64,000 bases of DNA, taken from positions 52,895 to 116,894 of the forward strand of contig NMRA01000862.1 in assembly GCA_002633005.1 (NCBI GenBank). The letters are read 5' to 3'. This document shows, one piece after another, positions 3,552 to 60,100 of this stretch. Below the pieces are notes generated by a model, which was not told where the DNA came from, ran no database searches, and worked only from the letters and a program-made list of their open reading frames with translations. Numbering within the stretch: position 1 is the first letter of the stretch; each line of letters begins with the position of its first letter. The DNA is from Phoronis australis. Its lineage: Eukaryota > Animalia > Phoronida. The position numbers and the translations under genes are program-made.

Positions 3552-6500
3552 GTAGGAGAAGAATAAGCTACATGTAGTTTGCACATTGGTTGAACGTTAG
3601 TGTCATTGAAATGTGCTCATCAGAGTCTGCCTATTTCTTCGTTTTCTTTTTCTTTTGACGACTAAGTATCAGTCCACGGATCCACCGACCACAGTATAGT
3701 CACCAAGCGCCAAGTTGGGGGTCAGCCATTCAGAACCATGTTTAGTCTAATAAATCACAATCGGCATGAGAGAAATTGGGTGAAGTATAACATCACAAAG
3801 ATTAGTGGTTAAGGAGATACAACGGTAGTCTACTGGGGGGGGGGCAAAATGAGTCAATTTCTTGATGCGGAATGAGTCATTCTTGACTACATTTCTATTG
3901 CAGTTTCTGCTTCAAACAGAATCTTTTCTGAATAATTTTGATATCATAAGATAGTACAGGACCAATGTAAGCAAAAACGGCACCGACACTAAAACATCGT
4001 TTACCATGGTAACGCTGGAACTGTTTCCGTGGAGGTACATTTCATGTTAGTGAATAATCAGCAGTAAGTTATACCCTTATAGCGAAGTTGCCCCCACGAG
4101 AAAACCCAAAATATTAACATGGGCATGTGGTAAAATAAAAAATCTTTGTCGGCCCTTCATGCAGGATCGGTAATAGGCGTCTGAATTTCACTATATGTAC
4201 ATGTACTTTCAGACTGCACATTTGTGTATTTGTCGTGTTAAAGGAAAAGTCACCCTCTTTAATTAGTCTTTTTTACCGTCTTAATCGGTCTATATCCACA
4301 TCACCTCGTATACTGTCGATCTTACCTCGCCGAGAGGTGTCGCGTTAACCTGTGAGGAAGATGAGAACCGACGCAGCGACATCAGTGGTTCTTCTGCAGA
4401 GTGAGTACCGCTGTGGTGATCTGTATCGTTCCCGCTTACACGAAATATGAAGCTGCGAGGAAAGCAGGTATATCGTTTTTTCGATTTCCTCGAGAGCCCA
4501 TAATGCTTCGGAAGTGGCTCGCGGTAGTGAAAAATGAAAAGTACGCCGTTAATACCGAGTATGAGGCCATGAAACTTCTCCGTGTCTGTTAGTGGCCTGC
4601 ATTTTGTCTCATCGGTTGTTGATCAGTTTTTGATCATGGAGAATTGTAGTTGGCCATGAAAACATAGACATTTACAATTAATTCAAGGCGTGAGAGCATA
4701 CCGTTTTATACATGTATAACCTGTTTGATGATTGAGTCGTTCGTGAGGTGTCTGTTTGTTCCTCATCTGGGTGTAGGATGGTTTTGCCGTGGTATAATAC
4801 AACAATTAACAGAATTAGTTTGCTTAACTGTTTTTAATTGATTTTAAGAACACAAGCAGCTCCCTCTAAAATATAAAATCATACTAGATTTGTTCATCCA
4901 ACTCATTGAATACCAAACTAAAGCATACACATGTACAATATGCGTTAGTTGAATGATGGCTGATCTAAAGTGCAGGCGTGCGTTCAGTAACGCTAGGACC
5001 TACACTAGGACCTAGCTCAAAAGTCACCTGTTCTCATTTGAAATGCACGACAATGTCTCACGTGATCTCGCGAAATCTTATCTTTTAGCGAGGTCCTACC
5101 GTTACTGAATAATAGCCAGGTTTGCGAATTTATCTATTTAACTGGCACTGCCAGATGCGTCAAATATGGTATTTTTGCAAATTGCCAAGAAAAACAGCTT
5201 TGAAATCTCTTGGGAAATACACAAGGAACTTAGCGATACATTTGAGAACCTTAAAAGTGAGAAGAGGTCATATGAAAGATGTGGAACCTGTCCTCTCAAG
5301 AAGACACTAAGTACATTCACTGCACACTAGAGGGGAAATACGACAGAAGTCTGAACAATGACCAAAGACGTAAAACCAAAGTTCAACGTCCTTCTTCGTG
5401 TGAGCGCAGGTAGGAATCAACAGACTCCAGGGTCTGTCCATGAGGAATAGTTTTAGGTGTAAGTCATTCGTGCATACTTTTGTTGGCACACCGTGATTGC
5501 TTATAACTTGGGCCTCATTGCTTAATCATATCTTATTTCAAGTGTCTTGAAGTATATTTAGTGTATACACATTGTTACACAACGATAAAATGACTGTAGA
5601 GGGGAACAACTGCTCAAAATACCCATGTTAGCAATATCCTGTCTGTGAAAAATGATGTTTAGTTAAGTTCATGAGTTTTGTTACGCGGGTAGGACTGCAA
5701 CAGGTACCCGAAATAACAGAAAGGTTGTGGTCCTTGAATCTTTCTCTTTGCTTCCATTAACGAGAAGCAACATTTAATGGCCAATATGTTTATTAGACTG
5801 AAATTATGTTCCATTGACATAGAAAATAACCACCAAATGTGGTTAAACATTTTACACGACTTCTGCCCATGACCTACGCTTAGAGACTAGAGAGTATGTT
5901 ATGTCCGCTATTGAATTTATGCGATTGAATATGAAATTAATCAAACATGCCAAAGCCGTCAAAAATATTGTGTATTTTCAAAAAGTACATTGATATTAAG
6001 TTGTGATTTTACAACTAGTGAAGTTTAACAAGGTGGTTAGGCTAAAAATGGAATGGAACTCAAAAAATGGAAGTGATGCATGCCTAATATGAAGTTCACA
6101 GTTTTGCCCTACCACTCATCTCTGAAGAAGACGACAACCGCACATCAAAATGCACCCTCCCAAAATTGGAACAAAAAAGACAGAAAATTCTAATATGTCT
6201 CCAAATTGGCCCGTTGACTTGAGGACCTGCGGGTCAATTGATCTGATATCCACGTAAAAAATTCCGGTATTGTTTCATGCATGCTGAATTTGCAGTAGAG
6301 CTCAAAATTCCTGTTTACCTCATATGATTGCCAAGAAGCGGTGTATTTATGAATGAATTTTAGGGTCAACTAACAAAAATAATCATTGAGTGTTGTGAGG
6401 GTTCCACAATATTTGTCTAGGATCTTGAACCTAGGGTTTCCATGCCATACTTGTGCATGAAAGACAGTGTATGCCGTGTATACAATGGATTACAAAAACA

Positions 6501-9500
6501 CAATTGCACAAGTCAGATGTTTGTTTGGAAATCTGTTTTGTTGAAATGGTTAACTTTTTTGTGCTCATGGTGAAAGTGGGCTAATGTGAAGTGCAGAATG
6601 GTATTGCTCAACTACTGGGGTCATGTCAGTTGCCATCTACAGTTCTGTGTTATTTAAGGTTACACAAAACCAGAATGGCAGTGAACTAGGGTGGGGAGAT
6701 CTTGTACGGTTGTAAGGGGGATTTTAGTTGGTCTTGCTACATGTAGAAATTGTTTAGCAAATCCATAGTATACAGTGGTTGCTACTCAAGCACGCTAGAG
6801 TAACCACCTCTGTTAAGACCCTGTTGTTTTCATTTGGGTTGATTCCTGTAGCCTATGACTGTGAACATGCAGCAAACGCTATTTCCAATACACCTGATTG
6901 AATGTAACTATGAATATTCAGAGATAAACAGAAGGTGCCAGACAAAACAGGCAGACTTAATGAAATCTCAGAGTGGGTTAAAAGAAAGCGAGTTGGATTT
7001 GGAACCCATGGATACTACAGTAACAGTAAGTACTTGTAAAAACCTGTAACAAATTCCGTAATTGCATAAAATCGGTCAATTGTTTAATGTTATGATGTTA
7101 TGAAGAGAAACATAATGCACAACGACATGCATTTCATAATGACGCCGACACATAGGTAGCGGGGATAATTTAAATCGGTCTCAATATTTTCTTCATGTAG
7201 TGTGTCGTACTTGTTCTGTTTTATACCTTTGTCCTACTGTCAGGTACATAGAAATTCATTTTGTAAATTTATAATCAAATCTGAATGACTTATTTGTGAT
7301 GCCTTCACTTTAGATTGGTATTCATATTTTCTTAGCCAAAATGGTCACATTAAAATTAATGTTTTATTTTTTCATTAACACAATTTTAGGAATCAGGAAA
7401 GGCTTATGCTGAAGAAGTGGCTTCAGCTGAAGTTGAAGACTTGCCGATTACTAGTAAAGGTTGGGTATGACAAAGTTCAAAACTAGCAAGAAGGCACCCT
7501 GAACCGTTGAAAAAACTCATCCTGGACAACTAATTGATTGAGCTAGAGAGAAGCCGAAAAGTCTACTCCCAGAAGATGTGTCAAAGAGAATTTGTAACTT
7601 GAGTCGGGGAAAAAGTATTTGCCAAAGATTACTGGCTTATACCACAACAGGTCCAAAGCAATTTGTTGAGATAGGATACTCCCAGTAAATGTGGAAAACT
7701 GTGTCAGTTGGATGTAGGTGATGTCACAAAGGAAAAGGAGTAGGCATTGGAAATAGACAATCTGCGCTTTAAGAGTGTCAATGATGTACATGTAGCATTG
7801 GATAAATTCAAAGGGAGGAGGACAGTGACTGGACCTGTAAATACTCTGGCGGATCTGCTAAATCCAGTGGCATCATTATTATATCAGCACAGTTGTGTAG
7901 AGAAGTAGGCTTGCGTGTTGTTGCAACCTTTGTTTGCATCAGAACTGCTGAGCAAACAGCACAAATCTAAGTTTACTTGGATTGAATTTTTGTCTAGCCA
8001 CCGATCATGCTCCTGTGGATTAAGTTGGTACAGCCACATGGCAATGGTACATAGTTCTTCCTGTTTAGCCACTAGATTTTTGATCTGACAGAATTTCTCT
8101 GTGTGGCCATTACATTTAGACGGGTTTTTTCGTGATTCATGACTGTATTGTTTATTTTCCATGAAATTGATTTGAATTTATATTTCCGCAATTTACTTAT
8201 CATTATGGATTTTTGTTTGTAAATTAGTATTTATTACTGACATTTGAACCCCAGTTTGGGTGGTTTTGTTCATGTGTCTTTCTGCCTGCGTTGTAAATAC
8301 ACATTCCGTCAAGGATGTAAAGTTTTGATTTAGACAATTTACCTGTATAATCTTTTCTCAATTTCGTCCTTATCCAGATTGGAATTGCAGCAAATTGACA
8401 GTTTGCTATTCCTCGAGATCATGTTGAGTGTATAAAGTCACACACTGTTAGACAAGCCATCTTATAGAGCCTGGTCTCTAGCAAATGCACATTGCCAGTT
8501 CTTTTCGAAATTCTGAAATTACTCAAAAGTGACCAGGAAATACTACCTGTTTCATGATAAATTGTCTAAGTCAAAAGTTGTTTTATGTAATTGAAGACGG
8601 ACTTGGAATGATTTTTGTTGCAGTACTGAAAAGTGTCGGTGGATTTTTGAATTGACCATTTTATGCTTCCTATGAGTAGTTTCGTAACCAGTCTAGTATG
8701 TATATACATCTGTAATCGCACGGCAATTGTAATGCAAACCATGTTGCAAAAGTATTTTTCCATGACCATTTCATTGCAAAAATGCCGTTCAGTTGGAACC
8801 GACCAGCCTATTTTTCATTTTGTGGTGGGTGGTTATTTGTTGATCAGAACATTGATGTGTTACATAATTCTCCGTACAAACAGCCACCTCAAATATGTGA
8901 AGAAGAAATTTACAGTGTTGTCAGTGACATTGCGAAATCCGTTTTTGCAGTAAAACTAAATCACTTTGTTGTTCCCTGACTTTATGGGTTTTGTGTGGTT
9001 GACTCTGTCCTGTAGGATTTGGAGTGTTGAAAAGGTCTAGAAGTCATAACATTTGCACTTTTGACTATACAGTCATTTTTGTATTGTATTATTAAAACAT
9101 ATTTTGTAGTATACAAGTCTCTGGTTGGTGTTTAATATTTTTTCACAAGGAATATTTTCAACTTAGATGAGTTGTCTGTGAGGTAGACAACTTTAAAATG
9201 AGATAAGGAATAAGACTGTCAAATATTATTTTATTTTTAGGTCAGTGAGTGATTACCTTTGAAAAATTAATGCAGAATTTGAGAATAAATCAATACTAGC
9301 CGTTACCCTTTCGCACGGGCAGCAGCTAGTGGAAAACGCCGAGGGAAATAGTTACACTTAAGAGTGAACCAAGTGTTCATCGCAAGAGACAGGAACACTT
9401 CTTGAAGAGACCGCTATCAAAGCTTCAAGCAGAATTTCTGTCACTGTCAGAAATTAGTAGGCAAAGTATGCGGCTGCGGGAGTCTCATAAATTACATACT

Positions 9501-12500: not shown

Positions 12501-15500
12501 CGAGACCGGCAGCTACGCATTTGTCGGCAAGATTTCGCCCTGGGATTTCATCACAATTTTCTGAAAAATGATCGTAATTTTACAACGCATTTTGATAGCA
12601 ATGCACCACAATTTTGTAGAAAGTAAATAATAATATTCTGCACGCTTTATCTTAGCGCGGTAATGCATAAAGTTTGCGTACGTTAAGTGAGTTGACCCAG
12701 AACCGGTGATTGTGTTGAGGCGTAATCCTCAAAATTGCTCATGTTGGCTTGGTTCTGGTCAAGCGAAAACAAGTTTTTTTTTTACTACCAACCGCCGTGA
12801 AGTATTTGTTACTGTTTCTTTGAAGGGAGATATTGTTGGGCAGTTTCCAAGATACGTTTTCTTGCAGCCCTGAAAATGGGCGCTGCATACTTTAGGCCTG
12901 TGCTACATGTAAGAAGTCGGAAAGAATTCACTAAGTCGGCCTTTGCTACCAGCTCTACCGATGTCTCTGACCTATGTTTAACGCAGTTCTTGATCCTTGG
13001 GAAACAGGTAGTAACTAAATTCTTTATCTCGCTAACTGGTATTATAGCATGCCAGGCACACAACACGTATAACCTCCATGTGGCCGGTTCGCCCTCACGC
13101 GTGCCGACGTACTTGTTTACCGGCTTAACCACAATGCAACATTCTGACCCATTTCCAATATGGCGGCGTTGTAACTCCGCTATTGGACAGTATTTACACC
13201 GTGAAAACAAGGCTGCGAAGCCGTAAAATGTGTTTGAGCCTATAACTTTGGTAGAACATAATGTTTTTGGGAAATATTTCACCAGTGTTCATAGATCCCA
13301 TTAGGCTACCTTTGTGTTACATTTGGTGAAAATCGGCCGACTACCACCTTGTCGCTGGATGGCTGGTGCTCTCGTGGACTAGTATTTAAGATTTTGATCA
13401 GTACATTTAGTCTCAACTTTCGAGCTTGTAGCACGAATATAAGGGTCATCAAGTGGAAACTTTGTCTAGAACCTCATGCATAAACTATAATGTATTCAAG
13501 CACAGCCTGATAACCAGTTATCTTAATTTGCACAAAAAGGAGCAGAGAAATTGCCTAAATTAATTTCGAGTTGGTTTCGAGTACAAAGATTTGAGCCCGG
13601 GCCCTGGACTAAGATACGCTATCACATGTTGACGCGCCTTTTATTTTTATTTTTCAAATAAGTTAAATATTTGTAAGATATATGCTAATATTTTCACAAA
13701 TCTTCGTTTCAAATTATGAACAAACTATGTAACAACGTTTTTTAATGAACATATGTTGTTTTTATTCGCTTTTCGAGCTCCTCCTGACATGACATGTTCA
13801 TTGGAAGTTTTGCAGAATGACGTGTAAATTTTTTATTGGCTTATGAAACGTGAATAATCGAATCGTCAGCTTTCATTGGATCAAAATATGGGCGATATTC
13901 ATCGCGTTGAAAAACTGCCTTGCTTTGATACTCAATAGTCGTCGTTAGTAGTCATGTGCGGGTCACTAGACCATGCTTGATGCACGAGTTGATAACGGAC
14001 ACCAGCCAACCACTTTGCTATCGACTACCGATACGTCAAGGTTAACAGAGTTTTTCACCGTCAGAATTCACCCTGTTCCTGTCTTTGCTTCCAAGCAGGA
14101 TCGTGCATTTCTTTTCTGATCTTGTTTCCTATACTTCAAACCTGTACTGGATATGTATGCGATCTATTGAAATTTGGTTGTAAACCTCAATTTTATAAAA
14201 TACATAAGCCGTTCTTTGGTTGTCATGGCGAATATTTATTAGGTCAAGAAACTGTGGAAACGCTTCATCCATCGATGTGCTAGTGGTAACCAGCCAGCCT
14301 TTGAAATAAACAAAAAGACGAGTGATGCAATGACCAACTTCCGAGATCTTCGTGGGTCCAACTGAGTTGTGTTCCCTCGGTTTTCTGTTCTAACATTTTC
14401 CTTACTGTCCGAAACCCATAAAAGTTCGTGTCATATCCCGTGCATATAAAATTTTGGCATATATTTTAGCACGGGTAACAAAACAAGTCGTAAAACTTAA
14501 ATAGCAACCTATCAATAATCGATTTGAAGCACTGTGTTTGAATTTATCTGCTTACTCGCAGTGTCACTATGCCAGTTTAAAAGAATTATATTTAAAACCT
14601 TTAACAAATATCAAACGAAAAAATTCAAAATGCTTTTACGGTAAGTAAAATATACCAATCTATCAATAAACGTCTATTGAAAATCTTTTCTTTTCAGATG
14701 TCGTTTGCACAGTTGCTGAAGGTACAAATGCATACATTACAACCCCAAACGTTCAGAAAGGCACTATGGTGAACTTTAACGAGGTGGTCGAGTACCAATG
14801 CGATTCCACGTATGAGCAGAGAGTAGTCAGTGGCTCGCTGTCAATAAAATGTGTCGGGGAAAGTGGCAGTCATGATGGCTGGGACAACGAGGCTCCAACT
14901 TGTGAGGGTAATTATACATGAATACTATACAATGCAGCCCACATGGAGTGCACAGGTTTCCATGTGTGCTACGCTGTATCAAAATAAACGCGAGCACGCA
15001 CATTTGTTCGACAGCACGTTTAGAACGATCACAATAATTTAATCACCATCTGACGACAGCGACGGCCAACATTGTCAAGGTTAGTGCCAACACATTATTT
15101 AACCAAATAGCAGGAAGAAATTACTAGGCTGGTTGTCTCTTCCTGTCAATATGTATGTACGTTGACCACCTGTGTCATGTTTCTTTCCCAAGAGCCAAGG
15201 AAAACGACGCAAAATTGTCACATTGCATATTACGGTATATTTACAATTTCAGTCACCGCTCTAAATTCTTGTACACGCTACCCTAGAGCAACTTGTACTA
15301 GTGCTGCCTATTCCACTTTTGATTGGAACATCCACAAGCACTTATGCAATAAAAGGGGTAAAGCGAAAGTCTTTCGCTCCGTGCAGTGACAATGAAAAAC
15401 TTAATATACTAAAACTGGACGCAAAAGAACACCCGTATACTTGTATGCGTCTAACCACAGGTGATAATTACGTCCGCCACACAGCGATTAGAAGTTGCGC

Positions 15501-45500: not shown

Positions 45501-45532
45501 TCCTACAACTCATTTCCAAAACATATCTCGAT

Positions 45533-45579
<47 letters not shown>

Positions 45580-48459
45580 CCATGGAAACTGTAGAATGAT
45601 ATTTTTCGTTGAGTGACTTTTGAACAAAAAGCGGTGTCTCGGAGTATTGCAAAATGCCTCATATTAGTTTTCAATCACCTACCAACAGAATTCAACTCTA
45701 TGGAAATCCGTAGAATCTAAACGCGTGGCTGAATAATCCAACGGTTGCTCGTAAGAGTTGAAAAACCTTAATTGTTTATTTGATGAAAATTCAAAAAGTT
45801 TACATTCAACTTTTCTCGCTGACAACATTAATTTTTAAAACAATCCGACAAATTTGACTGGAGTTCATTCAACTTCAAAAAAAGTTATGCCTGAAAGAAA
45901 TCAGCAAAGGACATCATCAAAAAACACATGGTATTTTTTGCTTAGAAGTTTTCTCAGTTTCCGAGAAGACAAGTTTTGAAATTTGTACGTCGGAGATTCC
46001 TTGTGAAAATTTTGCTAGAAAGAATTTTTGTATTAGATGATTCCTCTTATTAGCATTTCTAGAGAAATAACTATCGTGTTGCTTTCGTTTGCGTTGTCCA
46101 TACGTTGTTGTCTGATTTGGTCATACGTTGTCGTCTGTCCTTGTGATTAACTAACATGATTTAAGCTAAGGTAGCAGATTATATCGTACATATACACATT
46201 AAAGTTAAATGTTTATAAATAATTACTAACACTGTGCATACACTGTATGTTATTGGTATCATGGTTTTGGTTTCAGCGATAGTGTGCAAAGAAGAGGTAG
46301 TCCATTACGGCACTGTTAGTTTCACAGTGGATCCAGATATGGTTGCAAAACTTGCAGGCAAAGTTACTCAAGGCTACCGACCCTATCTCACTATTGCTCA
46401 ATTGACATGCAATACCGGATATGATGTGTTTGGTGATGGTAATCGCACATGTTTGGAAGATGGAAGCTGGAGCGGCAAAATATCTCCTTCCTGCATTGGT
46501 ATTTTTTCTTTCCTTAGCAGTTAAATTTCAATTCCCTGGTATCTCTAAATGAACTTGACAAGCTCTCGCAAGGGGTTCAGTTTGATTGTGATTGTGTTAT
46601 GAAATTTCGGCATGTTCTGACTTTGTATCAGTTGCATTTCTTCCGGGGTTTCAATCATAAAATTCACAAGAGCGGGCACGATGTCACAAAGCACCTGACT
46701 GTCATTTAACTGGCTGGAACCTACGTTCTTGATCAATAGTACATCACCAAGGTTTGGAATTACAAACTTTCCTGAAACAATGACACTTATTTAACCCTTG
46801 TCCATTCTGAAGTGCGTTGGTGTCATGGTGCATGTATTAAAAATGGGGTGGATCTTTCACTGTTAATGAAAAATATGCAACGTTGTCGAAAAAAAGAAAA
46901 TCATGACCGGCTACGTTTTCGACATTATCTTCAAATGTTTATTATGGCAAATGTAATTCATGCTACGTAGTGTTTCAAAGAAAGAAATGTATTATATCTG
47001 GGCGTAAAAATACGTCATAAATATCTAAGATGCAGTGCACTCCGTGAGGTTGCTTATTCGTATCCAACTTACTTAAGTTACATTGTTGTGCATAAGAAAA
47101 TATAAATGTGACTATACTGTAAGTAAAAAATGCATGTCTCATTAAGACCTACAGATTCGTTGTGTAATGTGACATCTTTGGGTTTCTTTGACGTACCAGG
47201 TCTTGTTGTTGCCAATTAAAAATGTGATTTAACAATAACATTTCGCCTAGTGGAGTTTCTATCGATACTGCAATGCGCTTTGAAGATGAAATTGCTGTGT
47301 AGTACATGAGATAGTATACTGTGTCCACCGCTTTCCAATCTCAGTGCAAAGCCCGTGAGACCTTGTCTTTTTAACTGACCAGTTTTAGTACGTGCAATTT
47401 TGCTGTATTTCTGAAAGACATTTGAATGATAAACAATTACACAATGGCTTCCGGTTGGTCATAATTGATGTTTTCATAAGCACGCAATTTCAAAAACAAG
47501 GCAAAATAGTACAGTGAATTTCAAAATAAACTAGACAGAATTCATATTCATCGGAACTCTTCTAGAATCATGCCTACGTTGAAACATCTTGCCAGTACTG
47601 CTGTTTATTTGCCAGTTTAGTCGAACTTTTGTCGCAATTAACTATCGTTTCTGTTGAACTTTTCTCGGAGCAGTAGTAATTGGTGGTCATATTGGATTTT
47701 GCAAACCCGGAGTGTTGCCTGTACATGTAGTTTCGAAGAAGAATGTACTAAGGAAACCGTTTTACTGTTTCTTGAGCTTCCATTTCTAAGTACTTGAGAC
47801 ATAAATACACAGCCTGGACTGAAAGGGCGTTTAATAACTTTTGCCGGTTACTGTTTTGCCACTGAGTGGTAAATTATGGCATTTACAGTTTTACATGATC
47901 TCGCCAAGTTAAATTTACTAATGACTGATGACATTATCCATTTTATGCAGATGATGACGAATGTTCTAGACCCAACATCTGTGGCAGTGGTAGCGATTGT
48001 CAGAACACTGTAGGATCGTACACATGTATTTGTCAACAAGGGTATGGTATTGACGGCAACTCTTGTTCAGGTGAGGAAAAGTGAGAGGTTCCTGTCGCAA
48101 TTAGAAACAGTCATACAGTAGCATACTTGTATGCTAACTCATAGCATTTTGCAGTATTGTATTTCGAAGGTTTTAGATGAAAAGTGCGCTATAACAAAAC
48201 TCTGAATAACGCAAAACGCCTCCTTAAAGCGCAAGTTAGAAAACGGCAAAACTAGTTTTCTAGTTGTTTACGTGTTAGTTGATAATGTGTCGTACTTACT
48301 TCATTGATACATGTTTTGAAGCCAATTTAACGGTGTGGAGGGTTTATTTCTAAGTGCGAGAGAAATTGAATAAAAGAGAGTTGGATAAATGGAGTGAATG
48401 AGCAGGTGAGTGAGAACGAGAGAGAAGACATGTGAAAGTGGAGGGGAGAGAGAGGGGGA

Positions 48460-48492
<33 letters not shown>

Positions 48493-48523
48493 ACTGAGAG
48501 ACTGAGAGACTGAGCGCACGAGA

Positions 48524-48599
<76 letters not shown>

Positions 48600-51500: not shown

Positions 51501-54500
51501 CTCGTAGGACATTGAAAATCCATTGAAGTCTTAATATTTTAATGTTTCAGACAAAGATGAGTGTACAGATGGATCAGCAAAGTGTGATGCAAACGCTGTG
51601 TGTACTAACACGCAAGGATCCTTCAGATGTGATTGTAAGACTGGTTATTCAGGAGATGGGAAAACTTGCACAGGTTTGTCAGTACAACATCAACGTCATA
51701 ATATTGAGTTGCTTTCAATGTTAATGTCATTCCTTATACTGCAAAATATACATTTATGAGTATGTAAAGCCATGCATTTATGTAACACTCACTCACAAGG
51801 TTTCTTTTGAGAACAGACTACAACCGGCAAAAAATGCTGTATAAGGCTCCTGATATAAGGTCAGCATTCGGACCACACAGTACTTGCCCTAGGCCATTTG
51901 AGGTGGCCTTCACGGGCAATGTTTCCGAACGATCACTTACGCTATTTTTATCTGATTTAGCCAAGACAATGCCAATTCTCAAGTCTCCCGTGCGACACAC
52001 TGCACTACTCGGGATTTTCTATTTAACATTTTGCTTCGACTAGCTAAACAGTACATTTACAAGGAGAGATGTCACAAAAATATACCAATTTTTCACAAGT
52101 TCGTTACAAAAACTTATGAGTACTATAATGCTGAAAAATTAATGGCATATAAAAACTTTCTGTATCACAGCTTCTATGCGAAATGGTAAAATTTTATTGT
52201 TCACGTTAACTACACGTACATGTAGAAGATATTTTCTTGAAACAAGATACGAGAATGCTCTTCCTGAGGTCTGCATGCGTGAATGAATGATGTACTTATT
52301 TGTTTATATGTTAATGTAATTGTTTGTAAATGTTAATAAATACATAAAAGAGAAACAAAAAAAGATTCATCGTTTCTCTTACATGTCGCTCGGAACACAA
52401 CTTTACGCAGATCTCGGAGGACATTAAAAATCCGTTGAGTATCTCATTTTTAAGGTTTCAGACAATAACGAATGTACAGATGGAACAGCAAACTGTCATC
52501 CAAACGCTTAGTATACTAAAACGCAAGGACCCTTCACGTGTGACCTATGTATCGGTCCGTATTCTATTTCAATGCACTTTGGGACGAAAGCGGACAAGAT
52601 ATTGAATTCCAAGTTAGGTGATTCTGCAACAAGAACGCAATATTCTTCGTTCCCCCTACTTGTCCTTCTAGAATAAAAGTTTACGCAGTTCTCGTAGGAC
52701 ATTGCAAATCCATTGAAGCCTAATTTTTAATGTTTCAGACAAAGATGAGTGTACAGATGGATCAGCAAAATGTCATGCAAACGCTTCGTGTACTAACAAG
52801 CAAGGATCCTTCAGATGTGATTGTAAGACTGGTTATTCAGGAGATGGGAAAACTTGTACAGGTTTGTCAATACAGCTTCAGCATCGTAATCTAGATTTGG
52901 TTTAAATGTTAATGTCATTCCTTATACTACAAGTTATACATTTATGAATATGTAAATCCATGCATTTGTGTAACACTCACTGACAAGGTTTCTTTTGAGA
53001 ACAAACTACAAGCGGCAGAAAATGCTGCATAAGGCTCCTGATATAAGGCCAGCCTTCAGACCACACAGTACATGCCCTGGGCCATTTGAGGTGGCCTTCA
53101 TGGGCAATGTTTCTGAATGATCATTTACGCTATTTTTATCTCATTTAGCAAAGACAATGCCAATTCTCAAGTCTCCCGTGCGACACAATGCACTTATCGG
53201 GAACACACACACATTGTCCAAGCAGGGGGTGACAAAGTTTCAAAACAATTTATTCGAGCCACGCAAGAATATGGATTTGTCGTTCTACATAACCTAATAT
53301 TGCCATATGGATTGCCCTGTTTTGTATGTAAAAACTGTCGTCTTCATACATGTCAATGAGAACTCATCACTCAATCGCACTTAACGTTTTGGCTATTTTC
53401 CACCAAGGAGCTAAACGTTTTCTCCACTCGCCTTCTTGGCGATGCAGTTACACACAAGGCAGGTAATTTTGGATCTCAAAATATGTTTTTCTCTCAAACG
53501 GTCCATAAAACACGACATTGCTTTCTGTATCGGTCCGTATGCACTTTGGAGCGAAAGACAACAAGATAATGAATTTCAAGTTGCGTGATTTTGCAACAAG
53601 GAATCAAGATTCATCGTTTCTCTTACATGTTGCTCGGAACACAACTTTACACAGATGTCGGAGGACATTACAAATCCGTTGAGTGTATCATTTTCAAGGT
53701 TTCAGACAATAACGAGTGTACAGATGGATCAGCAAACTGTCATCCAAACGCGTAGTGTACTAACACGCAAGGATCCTTCACGTGTGACCTATGTATCGGT
53801 CCGTATTGTATTTCAATGCACTTTGGGACGAAATCAGACAAGATATTGAATTCCAAGTTAGGTGATTCTGCAACAAGAACGCAAGATTCTTCGTTCCCAC
53901 TATATGTCCTTCTTGAACAAAAGTTTACGCAGTTCTCGTAGGACATTGCAAATCCATTGAAGTCTAATTCTTAATGTTTCAGACAAAGATGAGTGTACAG
54001 ATGGATCAGCAAAGTGTGATGCAAACGCTGTGTGTACTAACACGCAAGGATCCTTCAGATGTGATTGTAAGACTGGTTATTCAGGAGATGGGAAAACTTG
54101 TACAGGTTAGTCAATACAGCTTCAGCGTCATAATCTAGATTTGGTTTAAATATTAATGTCATTCCTTATACTGCAAGTTATACATTTATGAATATGTAAA
54201 TCCATGCATTTGTGTAACACTCACTGACAAGGTTTCTTTTGAGAACAAACTACAAGCGGCAGAAAATGCTGCATAAGGCTCCTGATATAAGGCCAGCCTT
54301 CAGACCACACAGTACATGCCCTGGGCCATTTGAGGTGGCCTTCATGGGCAATGTTTCTGAATGATCATTTACGCTATTTTTATCTCATTTAGCAAAGACA
54401 ATGCCAATTTTCAAGTCTCCCGTGCGACACAATGCACTTCTCGGGAACACACACACACATTGTCCAAGCAGGGGGTGACAAAGTTTCAAAACAATGTATT

Positions 54501-56189
54501 CGAACCACGCAAGAATATGGATTTGTCGTTCTACATAACCTAATATTGCCATATGGATTGCCCTGTTTTGTATGTAAAAACTGTCGTCTTCATACATGTC
54601 AATGAGAACTCATCACTCAATCGCACTTAACATTTTGGCTATTTTCCACCAAGGAGCTAAACGTTTTCTCCAATCGCCTTCTTGGCGATGCAGTTACACA
54701 CAAGGCAGGTTATTTTGGATCTCAAAATAATTTTTTCCTCAAACAGTCCATACAACACGACATTGCTTTCTGTATCGGTCCGTATGCACTTTGGAGCGAA
54801 AGACAACAAGATGCTGAATTTCAAGTTGCGTGATTTTGCAACAAGGAACCAAGATTCATCGTTTCACTTACATGTCGCTCGGAATACAACTTTACGCAAA
54901 TGTCGGAGGACATTAGAAATCCGTTGAGTGTATCATTTTTACATGTAAGGTTTCAGACAATAACCAGTGTACAGATGGGTCAGCAAACTGTCATCCAAAC
55001 GCTTAGTATACTAACACGCAAGGATCCTTTACGTGTGACCTATGTATCGGTCTGTATTGTATTTCAATGCACTTTGGAACGAAAGCGAACAAGATATTGA
55101 ATTCCAAGTTAGGTGATTCTGCAACAAGAACGCAAGATTCTTCGTTCCCCCTACATGTCCTTCTGGAACAAATGTTTACGCAGTTCTCGTAGGACATTGA
55201 AAATCCATTGAAGTCTAATTTTTTAATGTTTCAGACAAAGATGAGTGTACAGATGGATCAGCAAAATGTCATGCAAACGCTGTGTGTACTAACACGCAAG
55301 GATCCTTCAGATGTGATTGTAACACTGGTTATTCAGGAGATGGGAAAACTTGTACAGGTTTGTCAATACAGCTTCAACGTCATCATCTCGAGTTGCTTTA
55401 AACGTCAATGCTATTCCTTATACGGCACAATGTACTTCATTTGAAAATTATTCTAAAAAACTACAGTCATGTATGATTTTGTGTTCTTTTCTAGCGTGAT
55501 TCAATAGCCCGAGCGCTTGTCTCATTTGGTCTAGAGGGTGTAGCGATATTCGTGCAAATGAGTCCTAAGCACCGGGAAAGACATTAAACATCCTCATACA
55601 AAAAACGTCTACCTTATTCCAACTTGCAACATTACGATGCTTTCTTTAAATTCAAAACGAGGGAAGATCCGGGGTCTTCTCGGGGCATATACTATTCATT
55701 GATACTTTAATACTATTTTACTATGACTGCGTTCCGTAAACTCAAGACACTACTGGCGAGGCAATTACTTACGGCGAAAAAGTCCTCTTAGCAACGTAAA
55801 CAGAGAACGTTGTTCCACCTCGCTCGTCGTTATGTGCATTTCGTCTAGTGGTGAGGCTAGCAGTCTTTCTTAATCCATTTGAAACAACTACTACATTGCT
55901 AAGTCTCTTGCAACGTCATTATTTCTGTTATGTTTCAGGAGACATCTTTGTTTTCAGTTTTTTAATACCCAGAGTCAATGAAGCATGTATCATCATACCA
56001 CACAAGTGTCAAACGAAAATACAGTTTCTGTTGTAAAGCTCGTTATAAACTTATTTAATGTTGTAGACATAGATGAATGCACAACTGGGACTGCTAGCTG
56101 CCATAAAAACGCCAACTGCTTAAACACGGATGGATCCTACAGTTGTCGTTGCAAAAATGGATATTCCGGAGATGGAAAAAATTGTCAAG
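3351..56189 (+). CDS. Partial multi-exon gene: extracellular protein with 9 Sushi/CCP domains then 6 calcium-binding EGF domains (15 phase-1 exons, 2649 nt, about 883 aa; N- and C-termini outside the window)
   Basis: Every exon has AG/GT boundaries, a length divisible by 3, phase 1-1 and no stop codon, and encodes exactly one CCP or cbEGF module. The exons join in frame. Confidence 0.9.
4238..8800 (+). mobile_element. Decayed Kolobok-like element: TTAA+AGG terminus, THAP remnant, possible antisense KolX-like remnant
   Basis: TTAA-AGGAAAAGTCACCC at 4238. THAP-like VICIVPAY...[20 protein letters not shown]...RVC(fs)SGLHF at 4413-4605. Minus strand 8342-8800 gives ERHFCNEM...CIT and FIH...[14 protein letters not shown]. 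The right terminus was not found. Confidence 0.45.
4976..5116. mobile_element. Small MITE, PIF/Harbinger-like
   Basis: Inverted repeats TTCAGTAACGcTAGGACCT and AGGTCCTAcCGTTACTGAA (18/19 match), with CAG on both flanks as a candidate 3-bp TSD. Confidence 0.55.
14698..14907 (+). CDS. Exon: Sushi/CCP domain 2
   Basis: ttttcag|AT ... G|gtaatt; 210 nt; [70 protein letters not shown]. The ORF track reports this region in another frame. Confidence 0.92.
16118..17900 (+). mobile_element. Gypsy (Gmr1-like) LTR retrotransposon remnant: LTR, PBS and decayed gag
   Basis: Candidate LTR TGTCACGA(16118)...TCTTGATA(16793); PBS-like TGGCG at 16796. Gag motifs [47 protein letters not shown] and SCAN-like [15 protein letters not shown], plus a degenerate knuckle [13 protein letters not shown]. 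Frameshifts and stops throughout. Confidence 0.85.
18581..18763 (+). CDS. Exon: Sushi/CCP domain 3
   Basis: ctgcag|AT ... G|gtgagg; 183 nt; [61 protein letters not shown]. Confidence 0.93.
19620..20720 (-). mobile_element. Polinton/Maverick (adintovirus-like) protein-primed DNA polymerase B fragment, decayed
   Basis: Collinear minus-strand motifs: [21 protein letters not shown]; [23 protein letters not shown]; [26 protein letters not shown]; [12 protein letters not shown]; [15 protein letters not shown]; [12 protein letters not shown]; LFKD(fs)[11 protein letters not shown]. Confidence 0.85.
24027..24221 (+). CDS. Exon: Sushi/CCP domain 4 (two extra Cys)
   Basis: tttcag|TA ... G|gtgagg; 195 nt; [65 protein letters not shown]. 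Confidence 0.9.
25550..26318. mobile_element. Penelope-like element insertion with inverted 3' ends and a 14-bp TSD
   Basis: Minus-strand GIY-YIG C-terminus ([40 protein letters not shown]) at 25733-26007. An N at 26008 is followed by a plus-strand copy of the same 3' end from 26009. TCATCAATTCCCAA is repeated at 25536-25549 and 26319-26332. Confidence 0.92.
26152..26202 (+). ncRNA. Minimal type I hammerhead ribozyme (U3/A8 core variant) in the PLE 3' repeat
   Basis: tttg-TTGATAA-A-ggaag-ttgtta-cctcc-GAA-AATT-T-caaa: stem I tttg/caaa, stem II with 4 of 5 pairs, palindromic AATT stem III. An identical copy lies on the minus strand at 25586-25636. Confidence 0.65.
28515..28672. mobile_element. 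Short hAT-like MITE
   Basis: Termini CAGTGGCGGATTTAG and CTGGATCCGCACCT, with G-run and C-run subterminal motifs; no clear TSD. Confidence 0.5.
29505..29768 (+). CDS. Exon: Sushi/CCP domain 5 (long insertions)
   Basis: tttcag|AC ... A|gtaagt; 264 nt; [88 protein letters not shown]. Confidence 0.9.
29899..30015 (+). mobile_element. tRNA-derived SINE head remnant
   Basis: A-box-like CAGCGTGGTCTTGTG and B-box-like GGGTTTGAGTCCC, followed by a CORE-like CCCTTGAGTCAGG. Confidence 0.45.
32510..35640. mobile_element. Non-autonomous Tc1/mariner (pogo-like) element
   Basis: Perfect 22-bp TIR CCGGGGTTTTCCGTAGATAAGC at 32510-32531 and 35619-35640, flanked by TA at 32508 and 35641. Confidence 0.9.
33064..34830 (+). 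mobile_element. Helentron/HINE-like non-autonomous element nested in the Tc1/mariner element
   Basis: AACTAG start; hairpin TTATTGTCACG-G-CGTGACAATAA (33075-33097) recurring near 34615; three internal repeat copies (first two ~345 bp apart) with TGACCTTTGACC motifs; (AAG/AAT) microsatellite at 34565-34600; ~56-bp terminal repeat with a CTGCGC...GCGCAG hairpin. Confidence 0.6.
36032..36271 (+). CDS. Exon: atypical Sushi/CCP-like domain 6 (6 Cys)
   Basis: catag|TT ... G|gtaagt; 240 nt; [80 protein letters not shown]. Confidence 0.85.
36503..38908 (-). mobile_element. hAT transposon deletion derivative with a transposase remnant and 5-bp TSD
   Basis: TIRs CAGTAGCGGATCCA and TAGATCCGCCACTG (12/14), with GGCGT on both flanks. 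Minus strand 37580-37885 reads [56 protein letters not shown], similar to THAP12/ZMYM-type hAT transposases. Confidence 0.8.
40413..40619 (+). CDS. Exon: Sushi/CCP domain 7
   Basis: ctttcag|AA ... G|gttcgt; 207 nt; [69 protein letters not shown]. Confidence 0.88.
43240..43360 (+). repeat. Cluster of short degenerate repeats (TACCAARTGGGTA-like)
   Basis: About five copies, e.g. 43245, 43263, 43289, 43329. Confidence 0.5.
43956..44147 (+). CDS. Exon: Sushi/CCP domain 8
   Basis: ttgcag|CG ... G|gtagac; 192 nt; [64 protein letters not shown]. Confidence 0.93.
45536..45576. repeat. (CA)n microsatellite
   Basis: Read directly from the sequence. Confidence 0.97.
46277..46498 (+). CDS. Exon: Sushi/CCP domain 9
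   Basis: tttcag|CG ... G|gtattt; 222 nt; [74 protein letters not shown]. Confidence 0.93.
47951..48070 (+). CDS. Exon: calcium-binding EGF domain 1
   Basis: atgcag|AT ... G|gtgagg; 120 nt; [40 protein letters not shown]. Confidence 0.93.
48470..48597. repeat. Interrupted (GA)n microsatellite
   Basis: Read directly from the sequence. Confidence 0.97.
51551..51673 (+). CDS. Exon: calcium-binding EGF domain 2 (tandem unit 1)
   Basis: tttcag|AC ... G|gtttgt; 123 nt; [41 protein letters not shown]. Confidence 0.9.
52015..52361 (+). mobile_element. 5'-truncated L1/Tx1-like LINE 3' fragment
   Basis: Present in only one tandem unit. It reads [40 protein letters not shown] across frameshifts, and ends with AATAAA and an A-rich tail. 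Confidence 0.65.
52462..52544 (+). pseudogene. Truncated EGF pseudo-exon, copy 1
   Basis: Acceptor gtttcag followed by [30 protein letters not shown] at 52509; the 3' third and the donor are missing. Confidence 0.85.
52739..52861 (+). CDS. Exon: calcium-binding EGF domain 3 (tandem unit 2)
   Basis: 123 nt; [41 protein letters not shown]; AG/GT intact. Confidence 0.88.
53706..53788 (+). pseudogene. Truncated EGF pseudo-exon, copy 2
   Basis: [27 protein letters not shown]; TAG at 53753; no donor. Confidence 0.85.
53983..54105 (+). CDS. Exon: calcium-binding EGF domain 4 (tandem unit 3)
   Basis: 123 nt; [41 protein letters not shown]; donor gttagt. Confidence 0.88.
54957..55039 (+). pseudogene. 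Truncated EGF pseudo-exon, copy 3
   Basis: [27 protein letters not shown]; TAG at 55004; no donor. Confidence 0.85.
55235..55357 (+). CDS. Exon: calcium-binding EGF domain 5 (tandem unit 4)
   Basis: 123 nt; [41 protein letters not shown]; AG/GT intact. Confidence 0.88.
56067..56189 (+). CDS. Exon: calcium-binding EGF domain 6
   Basis: ttgtag|AC ... G|gtttgt; 123 nt; [41 protein letters not shown]. Confidence 0.93.
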
Positions 56190-56378
56190 GTTTGTACTTA
56201 CATGTAAACATGGCGGTATCTGCCAGCGTTGTCGTCAGCTAGGAGTCCATCTTCATCGTGGGTTTCGACCAAGGAGTGTAGTAGTATAGGAGAGTTCACT
56301 TGTGAGTTCGCTGTTACCGCTACTACTAGCGCCGCCAAGTGGTGAACAAGCTACGGTCAACCAGGAAGCGCCAAAACA

Positions 56379-56476
56379 ATGGGGACGGACGCATTTTGCA
56401 GTGCGATAAATTGCATGAATTGATCCACGAAAACCCCACACGTGTCATTTTGTAGGTTTCCTAAGGATCCAGAAAG
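56379..56476 (+). mobile_element. THAP-domain first exon of a transposase, inactivated
   Basis: MGTDAFCSAINCMN*STKTPHVSFCRFPKDPER followed by AG|GTAAG; the sequence is cut by the N at 56513. Confidence 0.7.
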
Positions 56477-56873
56477 GTAAGGATTATCTGTTATTCAATA
56501 ATATGATACATTNTTCCGGAGATGGAAAAAATTGTCAAGGTTTGTACTTACATGTAAACATGGCGGTATCGGCCAGCGTTGTCGTCAGCTAGGAGTCCAT
56601 CTTCATCGTGGGTTTCGACCTTGACCTAGCATGCGCGCACCGAGCCTTCAATATGGGGGGCTCAGATTCCTGACCTTGTGCACCATTTGGTAAGAAAAAA
56701 GCGGCCGGACTAAAACAAAAAGAGAAAACGGGGACCCCTGTGAATTACGCGTTTGTGCTTGTTTAGTGGACTTTTGTGTCATATTCTCTGAATTTTTGTT
56801 TCTCAGGGGCGGTCTTTCTTGCCCACTTCGCCAAATGCGTAGCTCCTTCGGGCCCCCCGAGCCCCCCCCCCCA

Positions 56874-57165
56874 TACCCAGTAGCTTCGTCATCAGTCACA
56901 CGCATACATGTAAACCCTCGACATCCAACTTCTATGGGAAGACAGAAGCATTTCCATCCATTTGTTGCACATTGCATGCCTAGAATCCTCTCTGATGGTA
57001 GGTCTCTGAAGGCTGACCAGACCTCCAGCCGACGCTGGGGTTGCCATTTTTCTCGCGTTGTAACCACAACCACACGGTTGCTTCCTCCGCCGCTCTTATT
57101 GCAGACCTGAACATATCAGCTCGACCTCTTGATGAAATACTCAGTAGCTTCGTTATCAGTCACAT
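56874..57165 (-). mobile_element. HERO-like LINE C-terminus/3' end plus an adjacent partial duplicate
   Basis: 57165-57040 reads LITKLLSISSRGRADMFRSAIRAAEEATVWLWLQRE; 56975-56874 reads CATNGWKCFCLPIEVGCRGF. Confidence 0.8.
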
Positions 57166-60100
57166 CAGGAAGAGATAACCAGGAAGGGACAACTAATTTA
57201 GCGCATTTTAACGTGTTTTCAAAGGTGATTTCAAAAGAAAATGTTAAAGTCGTCTGGAATCCAAGCATTGTATTTGAAAGCTTAACTCTTTAGCTATTAA
57301 ATGACACCACTTTGGTCCCCAAAGAATGCATATTAATGGCACTAGGATGCTTTGAGCATGACTTGTTTTACACTTCCAAAAGATGCCTCTTCCCAGGCAT
57401 GTACACGGGCATGATCCTCTTTTTTGAACCAACAGATGTCACTAATATATGCAAATGAGGCTAGCATCTCCTACGTCATATAACGTCATACGATGCGAGT
57501 TTCCAATTTGAACCCTCAGGTGCCTATAGTGAATGACTTGAAACGCACTGAGTTCTACCTGATTGGGTAGATCTTAGAAAATTAGAACATTGAATGGTTT
57601 CACATGAAAATACATTTAATTGTATTTGGATACGCTTGTATGTGTGTATGCGTGGACCTCGTCATTTTGCTTGAATCCAGATTTAGAAGCAGGTGTTATT
57701 TTGTCAAGAAATGAGCTGCTCCCGCCACGGTGACCGGTGTCGTGGCGTCGCCGGGAAGTCTGATCCATGCATGCGCAATTCGACGAACTAGTGCTAGTCG
57801 CTGGTCAGCTCCTCTGATTCGTTTGAGACGTGCGGCGTAACTCGAACCTATACCCGTGTTCTGGCTCCAAGGTCGTTTTTTTTACCCAGTTTCGTGAAAC
57901 GTTCATTTTAATACGGTCATTTCCTGAAGATTTTTTGAAAGGTATGATCCCGAAATCCTTGGCCTATAGAGCTGTAGCAAAATTCCTTGTTGAAACACGG
58001 CCACTTGTCCAGCTTCTGCCGGGGGGCTGAGGAAAATGAACGCGTGTCCCAAAAATGCACACACTTCAACCCCTGCAGTTCAAGTTCTTTTCCCGTCAAT
58101 CACTGTGCGCGGATTCTACGCGGGCAGCTTACTGCAGGACTACACCTTATTTTTAACGTGGGTGCGTCACTGAGTCACGACGTGTCCAGCCTATGCAGTA
58201 TGCACGGGAATGGCAAGCAAACGATTCGGTTTAGAAGAACCTAAATTCACTGCACAGTTCTACTGGAAACTACAAGCATCAAGGAAGTGCAAAGACAATC
58301 TTTCCAAATTTATGAGTATTGACTTGAACTTCTTTTCGATCTACAGTTTGTAAATTTTTGAATTTCATTAGTCTAGTTTTTAATTCAATAAAGCATTTAG
58401 AACTGCCCGACATTCATGAATATCACTGTTATTGTTTAGTGTCCTTCTTTGCGATATGGTGGTCTGATGATGGATCGAATTGTTGCAAGTCAACCTTCAG
58501 CCTTCAACTAAGTTCAGTGACGCATCGCCATTTCTTACAAGACAGCTTCTTCTGTGCTGTGCACGAATGTTTTGTGTTTTTGATGAATTTGGAATCTCAA
58601 CTTACCCTCGTGAGTAGTTGGCAGTGTCATGTCGGAGGTGTATTGAGGGCGCAGCACTAAAAAAAGTGGGGGCTAAACCCTCCTCAGCCCCCTTGTAGTG
58701 CACCGCCTATGGACCACTGAAAAACCTGGACTGAATTAATACGCTCCGCAAAACTTTTGCTTTACAAATTTTCTCGACTTTTCGAAATACATGTATGAAT
58801 GATTAAGTGCACATTTTCAAAGGCGCGTAGACGACCTGTGCTGCAAAAACGGAGACCCTAACAACAATTGTCCTGGCCAGGGCCCTCAAATGGTAAACCA
58901 TACACTGATACCGAGTTGTCAAGTCTTGAATTTTCTCTCTGATCAGTATTCGAAGTCTTCTTTTTTGTCTTTCCCCAGCCCCACACCTTTGTCGGTTGCC
59001 ATGGTTTGACCCTGAGGCATGCAATTCTTTTGGGGTGGCACTCGCCCTCCCCCCGCTTACTAAGGTCCTGATGCAAGGAGTCCATCGCTGGTCCAAGGTC
59101 AATGATGTGTTTCAACACGCACTCGTTGTATAGCTTGAGCATTAAATTAAAGGTTTAAGAAATACAGTAGCAGTTTTGGGCATTGAATTGTGCGTGTAAA
59201 AGGGTTTATGGATTCGTACTGAATTTGTTGCTGCAACTTGTCTCACGGGCCTGTATCCGGCACGTGACCACAAATGTGGACACTAATTCGGCTATTGCGC
59301 AAGTCGACTGTAGCAAGGTGGCCAGTGAAAATGTAAGGCAGTGACAACTCGGATTTCTAGTCTCTTATTATGAAAACCATTGAAGGCAATTATCAGCACC
59401 TGCAAACAAGATTTTTGAAGTATGGAGAATTTCAACAGGAGTTAGTTGCCATACCTAGTAGCGAAGCTGCCAACATTCCAGCCAGGGTTACTTCCGGTCC
59501 TTCGAAGCAATTATAGCACATATATACGAATTTTTAAGAATGGCAAGGGTGCGTTTTGTGTTGACGGAAATGTCCATGGCGTCAAGGAATTTGAGGCATT
59601 TAATGATTAACAACTGTTGTGGCTTAATTTGGAAAAACACCTAGCAAAACTAACTTCCAAGTATGCATACTGTGGCGGAATTAACCCACGGCCATTCTTT
59701 ATGCCGATAGCAATGTATTCGTCTACTGAAGAACAGGAATCATAGACATCCCGCGCGCTCCGTCTATGGTTCTGACACTTCAAACTTTTGTCAACACGAT
59801 AGGTATAGCCGCAGAAAGTTCGATGTTGACCTCATTCTAATCTCTGCAATCCACTGTCAGGGAACGAAAACAATTCAAAGTCCGCTCCTCGAAATACAGT
59901 AGGGCTTGCTTCGCTGGAATTCAGAACTGCGGTCATGATAGTGTTTTCACCTCCTGATTACGAAGCGATCGAGTGGTACCTTCATCAGCGCGTGCTCTCA
60001 GCGGGAGGTCACCACTTTATCCACTCAAGCGCTCGACCAACAACTGACGAGAGTCTCAGATCTCCCACATGCAAATTTGACATGCAAATGAGGGAGTACT

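What the first reader, a model, noticed from the sequence alone, without database searches (positions are those of the whole stretch)
3569..58795. Window-wide TA to TACATGTA insertion signature: a recurring 6-bp insertion process
Seen: I count 26 exact TACATGTA palindromes, at 3569, 4198, 4709, 6738, 7787, 12904, 20852, 25128, 27908, 28671, 35344, 35875, 36431, 38347, 38353, 38375, 38976, 42138, 42320, 47722, 52217, 54940, 56199, 56549 (gap duplicate), 56905 and 58788. About 2 are expected at ~62% AT (rough estimate). They sit in unrelated contexts and none is in the 15 exons. Two paralog pairs show how they arise. At 54940 the sequence is cattttTA-CATGTA-aggtttcag, against cattttTA-aggtttcag in the sister unit near 52445. 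At 56905 it is gcaTA-CATGTA-aaccc, against gcaTA-aatcc in the HERO copy near 60394. TACATGTACATGTA at 38347 suggests repeated hits at one site. Established: TA-targeting Tc1-type elements with CA...TG ends can leave TA-CA-TG-TA excision footprints. Inference: either a very active insert-and-excise transposon or another templated micro-insertion mechanism has marked this genome about once every 2.5 kb. The insertion preserves frame; in the HERO duplicate it adds Thr-Cys (GFMHV becomes GFTCMRV).
Basis: partly seen in the sequence, partly recalled or inferred. Interest (0 to 1): 0.82.

Follow-up and report, generated by a model that had tools for sequence, protein, structure and literature searches.

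The report
Transposon exit scars in invertebrate DNA
The eight-letter word TACATGTA occurs over ten times more often than chance in this animal DNA, and at one site sister copies show it is a six-letter gain at TA, likely the scar left when a cut-and-paste jumping gene left the spot, though that gene was not found and some copies merely ride inside other repeats.

Summary
All 26 TACATGTA are at the stated coordinates; about 2 are expected. Short-read contigs carry them too, so an assembly artefact is unlikely. Corrections: 56549 is a gap duplicate, and four sites (38347, 38353, 38375, 42138) appear inherited with high-copy repeats rather than local hits. That leaves 21 candidates, still P about 6e-15, an excess of about one per 3.4 kb. 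Only 54940 is cleanly polarised as a gain (1 of 7 sister units). The HERO site lies in a frameshifted dead copy, so its polarity is ambiguous and 'adds Thr-Cys' does not hold. Best reading (0.68): excision footprints of a TA-targeting Tc1/mariner/pogo-type element with CA...TG ends. The same +6 product was 24 of 103 frame-selected germline Tc1 revertants in C. elegans (PMC4490562, Supplementary Data 3). No source element was found in the window and no genome is held. Here the symmetric +6 form exceeds the +4 forms that dominate somatic Tc1 excision. This scan noted the same pattern earlier in urchin and bivalve DNA; ten paper searches found no report of it in animal genomes.

The parts
54940..54947 (.). 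TACATGTA, polarised 6-nt gain at TA in the acceptor tract of a tandem EGF-exon unit
   Evidence: Present in 1 of 7 sister acceptor units; 5 of the other 6 have TA there, one has CA; no CATG within 30 nt of the site
56905..56912 (.). TACATGTA in a dead HERO non-LTR fragment; 6 nt longer than the copy at about 60394; polarity ambiguous, leaning to gain
38342..38388 (.). CATGTA array (sites 38347, 38353, 38375) inside a high-copy hAT-like element; a family feature, not local repeated hits; a minority subfamily is 12 nt shorter
42138..42145 (.). TACATGTA near the end of a high-copy repeat (about 41781-42162); other copies have no 6-nt gap here
   Evidence: table 8: X1 records 6 and 7, X5 records 15 and 16 (only 12-17 nt of right flank, since the repeat ends there)
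56549..56556 (.). Gap duplicate of site 56199 (not an independent site)
   Evidence: 99% identical 107-nt repeat across the N at 56513
3569..3576 (.). TACATGTA, unpolarised candidate
4198..4205 (.). TACATGTA, unpolarised; preceded by TATATG (chain-like)
4709..4716 (.). TACATGTA, unpolarised candidate
6738..6745 (.). TACATGTA, unpolarised candidate
7787..7794 (.). TACATGTA, unpolarised candidate
12904..12911 (.). TACATGTA, unpolarised candidate
20852..20859 (.). TACATGTA, unpolarised candidate
25128..25135 (.). TACATGTA, unpolarised candidate
27908..27915 (.). TACATGTA in single-copy DNA, bridged by a short-read contig with no difference
   Evidence: table 8 record 1
28671..28678 (.). TACATGTA at the right end of a small hAT-like element; bridged by a short-read contig with no difference
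   Evidence: (record 2)
35344..35351 (.). TACATGTA inside the TA-flanked CCGG-ended element; unpolarised
35875..35882 (.). TACATGTA in single-copy intron, bridged by short-read contigs
   Evidence: records 4 and 11
36431..36438 (.). TACATGTA in single-copy intron, bridged by short-read contigs
   Evidence: records 4 and 11
38976..38983 (.). TACATGTA in single-copy DNA, bridged by a gapless contig
   Evidence: record 5; record 4
42320..42327 (.). TACATGTA in single-copy DNA, bridged by a gapless contig
   Evidence: record 6; record 8
47722..47729 (.). TACATGTA, unpolarised candidate
52217..52224 (.). TACATGTA, unpolarised; preceded by TACACG (chain-like)
56199..56206 (.). TACATGTA about 10 nt into the intron after the last EGF exon; unpolarised
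58788..58795 (.). TACATGTA, unpolarised candidate
36504..38908 (.). High-copy hAT-like element (label from recalled end pattern) with a 5-nt flanking repeat; carrier of the 38342-38388 array
32508..35642 (.). TA-flanked TIR element with CCGG ends: TA-targeting cut-and-paste elements exist in this genome, but these ends cannot give CATG
   Evidence: 24 of 24 nt TIR
60387..61533 (-). Broken HERO-type non-LTR retrotransposon copy holding the short (empty) form at about 60394

Best explanation
TACATGTA is strongly over-represented here and at one site is a six-letter gain at TA; most copies are likely excision footprints of a TA-targeting Tc1/mariner/pogo-type DNA transposon with CA...TG ends that was not found in the window. 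Inferred mechanism: the element inserts at TA and duplicates it; on excision the staggered cut leaves two terminal bases on each flank as non-complementary 3' overhangs; end joining keeps and fills both, giving TA-CA-TG-TA, a net +6. Repeated over many germline generations this marks roughly 0.4-0.5% of TA dinucleotides (about 19 excess of 4311). Some footprints fell long ago into master copies of other repeats and were then copied with them (38347-38375, perhaps 42138), where 6-nt units may also change in number by slippage. Shown: enrichment, presence in short-read contigs, the gain at 54940, repeat-borne status of four sites. Inferred: that the 19 unpolarised sites are gains, the transposon origin, the repair route.
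For: 26 observed against about 2 expected, 21 after removing non-independent sites, P about 6e-15. 54940 is a gain in 1 of 7 sister units. Among 7 young paralog alignments (90% identity or more; 2 of 9 rows dropped, one at 80% and one aligned in the wrong orientation), 2 of the 4 distinct indels longer than 2 nt are this hexamer. The inserted letters are not copied from the flanks: CATG within 10/20/30 nt at 1/3/5 of 21 sites, as at other TAs (P 0.58-0.76). One-mismatch neighbours are only modestly in excess (57 against 38-44, partly paralogous), so the cohort is mostly young. The exact product is an experimental Tc1 footprint: row L of Supplementary Data 3 of PMC4490562, 24 of 103 wild-type, 10 of 36 lig-4 and 3 of 39 polq-1 revertants, selected for restored frame. 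Tc1 excision leaves non-complementary 2-nt 3' overhangs (PMC4490562 figure legend). TA-flanked TIR elements of another end type occur in the window.
Against: No TA-CA...TG-TA inverted-repeat element in the window: best pair scores equal shuffled ones; no genome is held to look further. 19 of 21 independent sites cannot be polarised. At 56905 intact homologues have 4 codons (12 nt) where the long copy has 10 nt and the short copy 4 nt, so length alone would favour loss; and the short copy has a CATG just upstream. Tc1 somatic footprints are mostly +4 (78%; PMC12632400 passage), but the +4 words here are only weakly in excess (54 against 40-44, P 0.02-0.09) and the Sleeping Beauty-type +5 words not at all (12 against 10-11). 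Fit of the collapsed sites to the Tc1 target consensus is inconclusive (P 0.057). No presence/absence polymorphism was seen, but the second individual's reads were only about 1-6 deep on single-copy DNA and only 12 of 151 and 12 of 49 gap rows were shown.
Confidence: 0.68

Rival explanations
1. A TA-directed insertion process other than ordinary excision (for example aborted integration, or a host repair activity adding a fixed palindrome) writes CATGTA at TA sites.
For: A single sharp product dominates, whereas Tc1 and Sleeping Beauty give mixed footprints; no source element found; not templated locally.
Against: The product is letter for letter a known Tc1 footprint; no such alternative mechanism turned up in ten paper searches; a 64-kb window need not hold the source.
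Confidence: 0.14
2. The word is common because it sits in the consensus of abundant repeats and grows by slippage; there is no ongoing site-by-site insertion.
For: Four sites are shared with other copies of their repeats, one array even with a second organism; array length varies by 12 nt between subfamilies.
Against: At least five sites lie in single-copy DNA (27908, 35875, 36431, 38976, 42320); flanks are unrelated; 54940 is a new gain with no CATG nearby.
Confidence: 0.09
3. TACATGTA is a transcription-factor site kept or favoured by selection, as proposed for Phytophthora promoters and Irx proteins.
For: Bound by PsMyb37 in Phytophthora sojae (PMC11134190 abstract and passages); named as the preferred Irx site (PMC3520976 passage); perfect copies exceed decayed ones.
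Against: Sites are spread uniformly (KS P 0.91) through introns, dead exons and transposon remains; selection does not explain a 6-nt gain from TA.
Confidence: 0.06
4. Library or assembly artefact.
For: Runs X1 and X2 may be the data the window was assembled from; the window has two gap-edge duplications.
Against: 6 of the 12 sites in the laid stretch are bridged by gapless contigs of about 42-51x depth from a different assembler; raw reads of another sample and a contig of another organism run through the 38342-38388 array mostly without a listed gap.
Confidence: 0.03

Closest known systems
Tc1 excision footprint TA-CA-TG-TA of Caenorhabditis elegans (PMC4490562 section 5 and Supplementary Data 3; PMC3520976 passage citing the original work, which I did not read)
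   Same: Same net change, TA to TACATGTA; same target dinucleotide; arises in the germline.
   Different: In the worm it is one of 26 products in a frame-selected assay and is called rare in PMC3520976; somatic footprints are mostly +4 (PMC12632400). Here the +6 form is the only clearly enriched word, at about one per 3.4 kb, and no source element is known.
Sleeping Beauty canonical footprints TACAGTA / TACTGTA (PMC6943129 passages)
   Same: Terminal bases of the element left between two TAs.
   Different: Net +5 from one end only; these words are not enriched here (12 against 10-11).
Phytophthora motif-1 / AM-20, TACATGTA (PMC3520976 passages; PMC11134190 abstract and passages)
   Same: Same octamer, very abundant in non-coding DNA.
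   Different: Read there as a promoter site bound by a MYB protein, with a footprint origin explicitly rejected and not tested by polarisation; here it is in an animal, not promoter-bound, and at one site is shown to be a gain.
Earlier notes of this scan on urchin, oyster and other mollusc DNA (e1-7787614, e1-9822721, e1-9569292, e1-9964811)
   Different: Other genomes; unchecked AI notes. This window adds that some sites are inherited with other repeats.

Membership tests
Tc1/mariner/pogo excision footprint | Footprint bounded by a duplicated TA | tested here: met
   Empty homologues read TA at 54940 (5 of 6 sisters) and 56905
Tc1/mariner/pogo excision footprint | Derived state is the longer one (gain, not loss) | tested here: inconclusive
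   Met at 54940 (1 of 7 units); ambiguous at 56905; 19 of 21 independent sites untestable
Tc1/mariner/pogo excision footprint | Added bases equal the termini of a resident element (CA...TG) | tested here: inconclusive
   No such element in 64 kb; no genome held; the one TA-flanked element found has CC...GG ends
Tc1/mariner/pogo excision footprint | Added bases do not come from the flanks | tested here: met
   No excess of nearby CATG at 21 sites
Tc1/mariner/pogo excision footprint | A filled allele or paralog (full element at the same TA) | not testable with these tools
   Second individual only about 1-6 reads deep on single-copy DNA and output truncated
Tc1/mariner/pogo excision footprint | Target flanks fit a symmetric Tc1-like preference | tested here: inconclusive
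   Mean score 3.05 against 2.58, P 0.057; consensus confirmed in PMC9635669 passage
Tc1/mariner/pogo excision footprint | Accompanying +4 or +5 footprint classes | tested here: inconclusive
   +4 words 54 against 40-44 (P 0.02-0.09); +5 words 12 against 10-11; 9-mers 5 against 0.9 but not significant among 512 words
Selected transcription-factor site (Irx / MYB AM-20) | Positional bias or cross-species conservation | tested here: inconclusive
   Uniform spacing; conservation of single-copy sites not testable, the second organism covered repeats only

The most novel reading that the evidence does not exclude
TA to TACATGTA is an unreported genome-wide mutational signature of invertebrate germlines: a cut-and-paste family and a repair route that nearly always keeps both 2-nt overhangs have rewritten about 0.5% of TA sites, seeding (TACATG)n arrays, in-frame two-codon insertions and ready-made Irx/MYB-type sites; the abundant Phytophthora promoter motif could share this origin.
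Probability: 0.35. Interest if true: 0.75.

Novelty: new variant of a known kind. Interest (0 to 1): 0.5.

Why it matters
Excision normally leaves little trace, so past cut-and-paste activity is counted from surviving elements only. A countable, dateable footprint class would let excision rates and germline repair choice be read from any genome, would explain an over-represented word that motif finders report as a binding site, and would be a source of frame-keeping insertions and new microsatellites. This window supports that only in part: one clean gain, no source element.

Tried and rejected
No whole genome is held, so genome-wide counts and a hunt for the source family were impossible. Scans for TA-flanked inverted repeats and TACA...TGTA pairs with gaps allowed found no CA...TG element. 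Laying reads on 27801-47800 and 38240-42460 was dominated by high-copy repeats; 12 of 151 and 12 of 49 gap rows were shown and none was a 6-nt gap, so polymorphism is neither shown nor excluded. Two searches with a Sushi exon found no homologue, so the taxon is known only as an invertebrate-like animal (best named HERO relative from a scallop, 48% identity). Metagenome scans with the HERO protein (163 stretches, none confirmed) and with a 22-nt repeat word (0 matches) gave no outside copies. Rfam: 0 matches. Local templating rejected. The 9-mer class TACAGTGTA/TACACTGTA (5 against 0.9) is not claimed: second of 512 words, one copy repeat-borne. A pyrimidine/purine bias at -2/+2 (29 of 42, P 0.011) was picked after viewing the data and is not claimed. 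The order-6 Markov value (20.2) is self-inflated and not a test. Paper searches (terms TACATGTA, CATGTA or ACATGT with footprint, transposon, excision, Tc1, overrepresented, indels, sea urchin, microsatellite, invertebrate; excision footprints with genome-wide; Minos; transposon footprints with microsatellite birth) showed no paper on a genome-wide TACATGTA footprint field in animals; the library lacks most subscription papers and genome-paper supplements were not searched. PMC2872659, PMC3979674 and PMC9976928 (passages only) did not bear on the motif.
Full report
Observation. The window (64,000 nt, about 40% GC, two N) holds 26 exact TACATGTA at the coordinates given. Dinucleotide shuffles give 1.3 +/- 1.05, at most 4 in 100 shuffles. 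Markov expectations are 1.4-2.5 for orders 0-3, 4.2 for order 4 and 9.5 for order 5; the rise is self-inflation, since with the motif collapsed out of the background every order gives 1.4-2.0. Apart from microsatellite and homopolymer words it is the top 8-mer and the top of 256 palindromic 8-mers.

Setting. The window is animal DNA: a gene with Sushi and EGF exons, Penelope GIY-YIG and HERO-type retrotransposon remains, and many high-copy repeats. No whole genome is held. Six public runs were listed: four of one sample, one raw-read run of another sample of the same species, one of a second organism; I laid four of them.

Is it in the DNA? In 27801-47800, which holds 12 sites, gapless short-read contigs of about 42-51x depth bridge six of them (27908, 28671, 35875, 36431, 38976, 42320) with 0-3 other letters per contig (table 8). 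These runs may be the source of the assembly, so this excludes an assembler error better than a library effect; but raw reads of another sample and a contig of another organism also run through the 38342-38388 array. An artefact is unlikely.

Not all sites are independent. 56549 duplicates 56199 across an N. The array at 38342-38388 lies in a high-copy element, 36504-38908. A contig from the second organism covers 38240-38419 with only 4 gap letters, and only 23 of 390 reads of the second sample show the 11-nt gap listed at 38363. So the array is a feature of the family; a minority subfamily is 12 nt shorter, and one single copy has 26 gap letters whose place I could not see. It is not evidence of repeated hits at this locus. 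At 42138, 4 of 4 listed copies of the surrounding repeat that run through the site have no 6-nt gap (they extend only 12-17 nt beyond it because the repeat ends there). Removing these five leaves 21 sites, P about 6e-15, an excess of about 19, one per 3.4 kb. They are spread uniformly (KS P 0.91).

Polarity. Only 2 of 26 sites have an empty homologue in the window. At 54940 the hexamer is in 1 of 7 sister splice-acceptor units; five of the others read TA and one CA at that place. This is a gain, and no CATG lies within 30 nt to template it. At 56905 the two HERO copies differ by the hexamer, but four intact homologues have four codons between the GF motif and the next conserved V/M/L position, that is 12 nt, against 10 nt in the long copy and 4 nt in the short one; both window copies are out of frame there and have a stop in the conserved frame. 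Length alone would favour loss. The four letters shared by both copies resemble the start of the Ile-Ala codons expected from the closest homologue, and none of the four homologues has Thr-Cys, which favours gain (inference). Across seven young paralog alignments, 2 of 4 distinct indels longer than 2 nt are this hexamer (two of nine rows dropped, one at 80% identity, one mis-oriented). None of the sites is in 12 candidate exons, but about one would be expected, so this is uninformative.

Age and spectrum. One-mismatch neighbours number 57 against 38-44 expected, several of them paralogous: the perfect word outnumbers the decayed excess, so the cohort is mostly young (inference). The +4 words TACATA/TATGTA are 54 against 40-44 (P 0.02-0.09), the +5 words 12 against 10-11, and a 9-mer pair 5 against 0.9, not significant among 512 words. 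Nearby CATG is no more common than at other TAs. Collapsed flanks fit the Tc1 target consensus only marginally (P 0.057).

Source element. No TA-CA...TG-TA inverted-repeat element was found in the window. A 3.1-kb TA-flanked element with a perfect 24-nt TIR is present at 32508-35642, so TA-targeting elements live in this genome, but its CC...GG ends predict TACCGGTA (2 against 0.4, P 0.06). Metagenome scans gave no outside copies.

Mechanism. Tc1 excision leaves non-complementary 2-nt 3' overhangs (PMC4490562, figure legend passage). In that paper's Supplementary Data 3, which I read whole, the product that keeps both overhangs, TA-CA-TG-TA, is 24 of 103 wild-type, 10 of 36 lig-4 and 3 of 39 polq-1 germline revertants; the assay selects restored frames. 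Somatic Tc1 footprints are 78% +4 (PMC12632400 passage), Sleeping Beauty's are +5 (PMC6943129 passages). The simplest reading is therefore a field of excision footprints of a CA...TG-ended Tc1/mariner/pogo-type family, joined with both overhangs kept (0.68). What differs from the known cases is the density and the dominance of the symmetric product; that leaves room for a different TA-directed process (0.14). Inheritance within repeats explains four sites but not the single-copy ones (0.09 as a full explanation). A selected binding site (0.06) fits Phytophthora, where the same word is abundant in promoters, is bound by a MYB protein (PMC11134190) and was judged not to be a footprint (PMC3520976), but it does not explain a gain from TA inside dead exons.

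Novelty. The footprint is known; a genome-wide field of it in an animal did not appear in ten paper searches (listings, with passages of the papers cited), though subscription papers and genome-paper supplements are outside that reach. This scan holds 47 earlier notes with these words in at least 5 genomes, none from this genome; they are unchecked and are not counted as support. They led me to two of the C. elegans papers, which I checked. Interest 0.5.

Noticed in passing
window 32508-35642: TA-flanked element with a perfect 24-nt TIR ending CCGG, full of nested repeats; a diverged copy of its right end lies at 37913-38031 inside the hAT-like element.
   Followed up: partly
window 36504-38908: High-copy element (summed contig depth up to about 2000 times single copy) with GC-rich TIRs and a 5-nt flanking repeat; also present in the second organism.
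   Followed up: partly
window 50788-56190: Tandem units of about 1.2 kb each carrying EGF exons; alternate EGF exons carry stops while the others are open.
   Followed up: partly
window 25548-26243 and 56164-56620: Near-identical repeats around the two N letters (one inverted, Penelope-derived; one direct): probable gap-edge assembly duplications.
   Followed up: partly
window 56650-57195 and 60250-61533: HERO-type retrotransposon pieces rearranged with a short inversion (57166-57195 against 60357-60386), next to a Penelope GIY-YIG fragment at 61683-62348.
   Followed up: partly
window 4192-4205 and 52211-52224: Chain-like forms in which a second TA-bounded hexamer precedes the octamer; could be older or different footprints at the same TA.
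   Followed up: no
window 28671 and 41781: Three contigs join the end of the small hAT-like element at 28671 directly to the start of the 41781 repeat, suggesting that one repeat tends to sit at the end of the other elsewhere in the genome.
   Followed up: no
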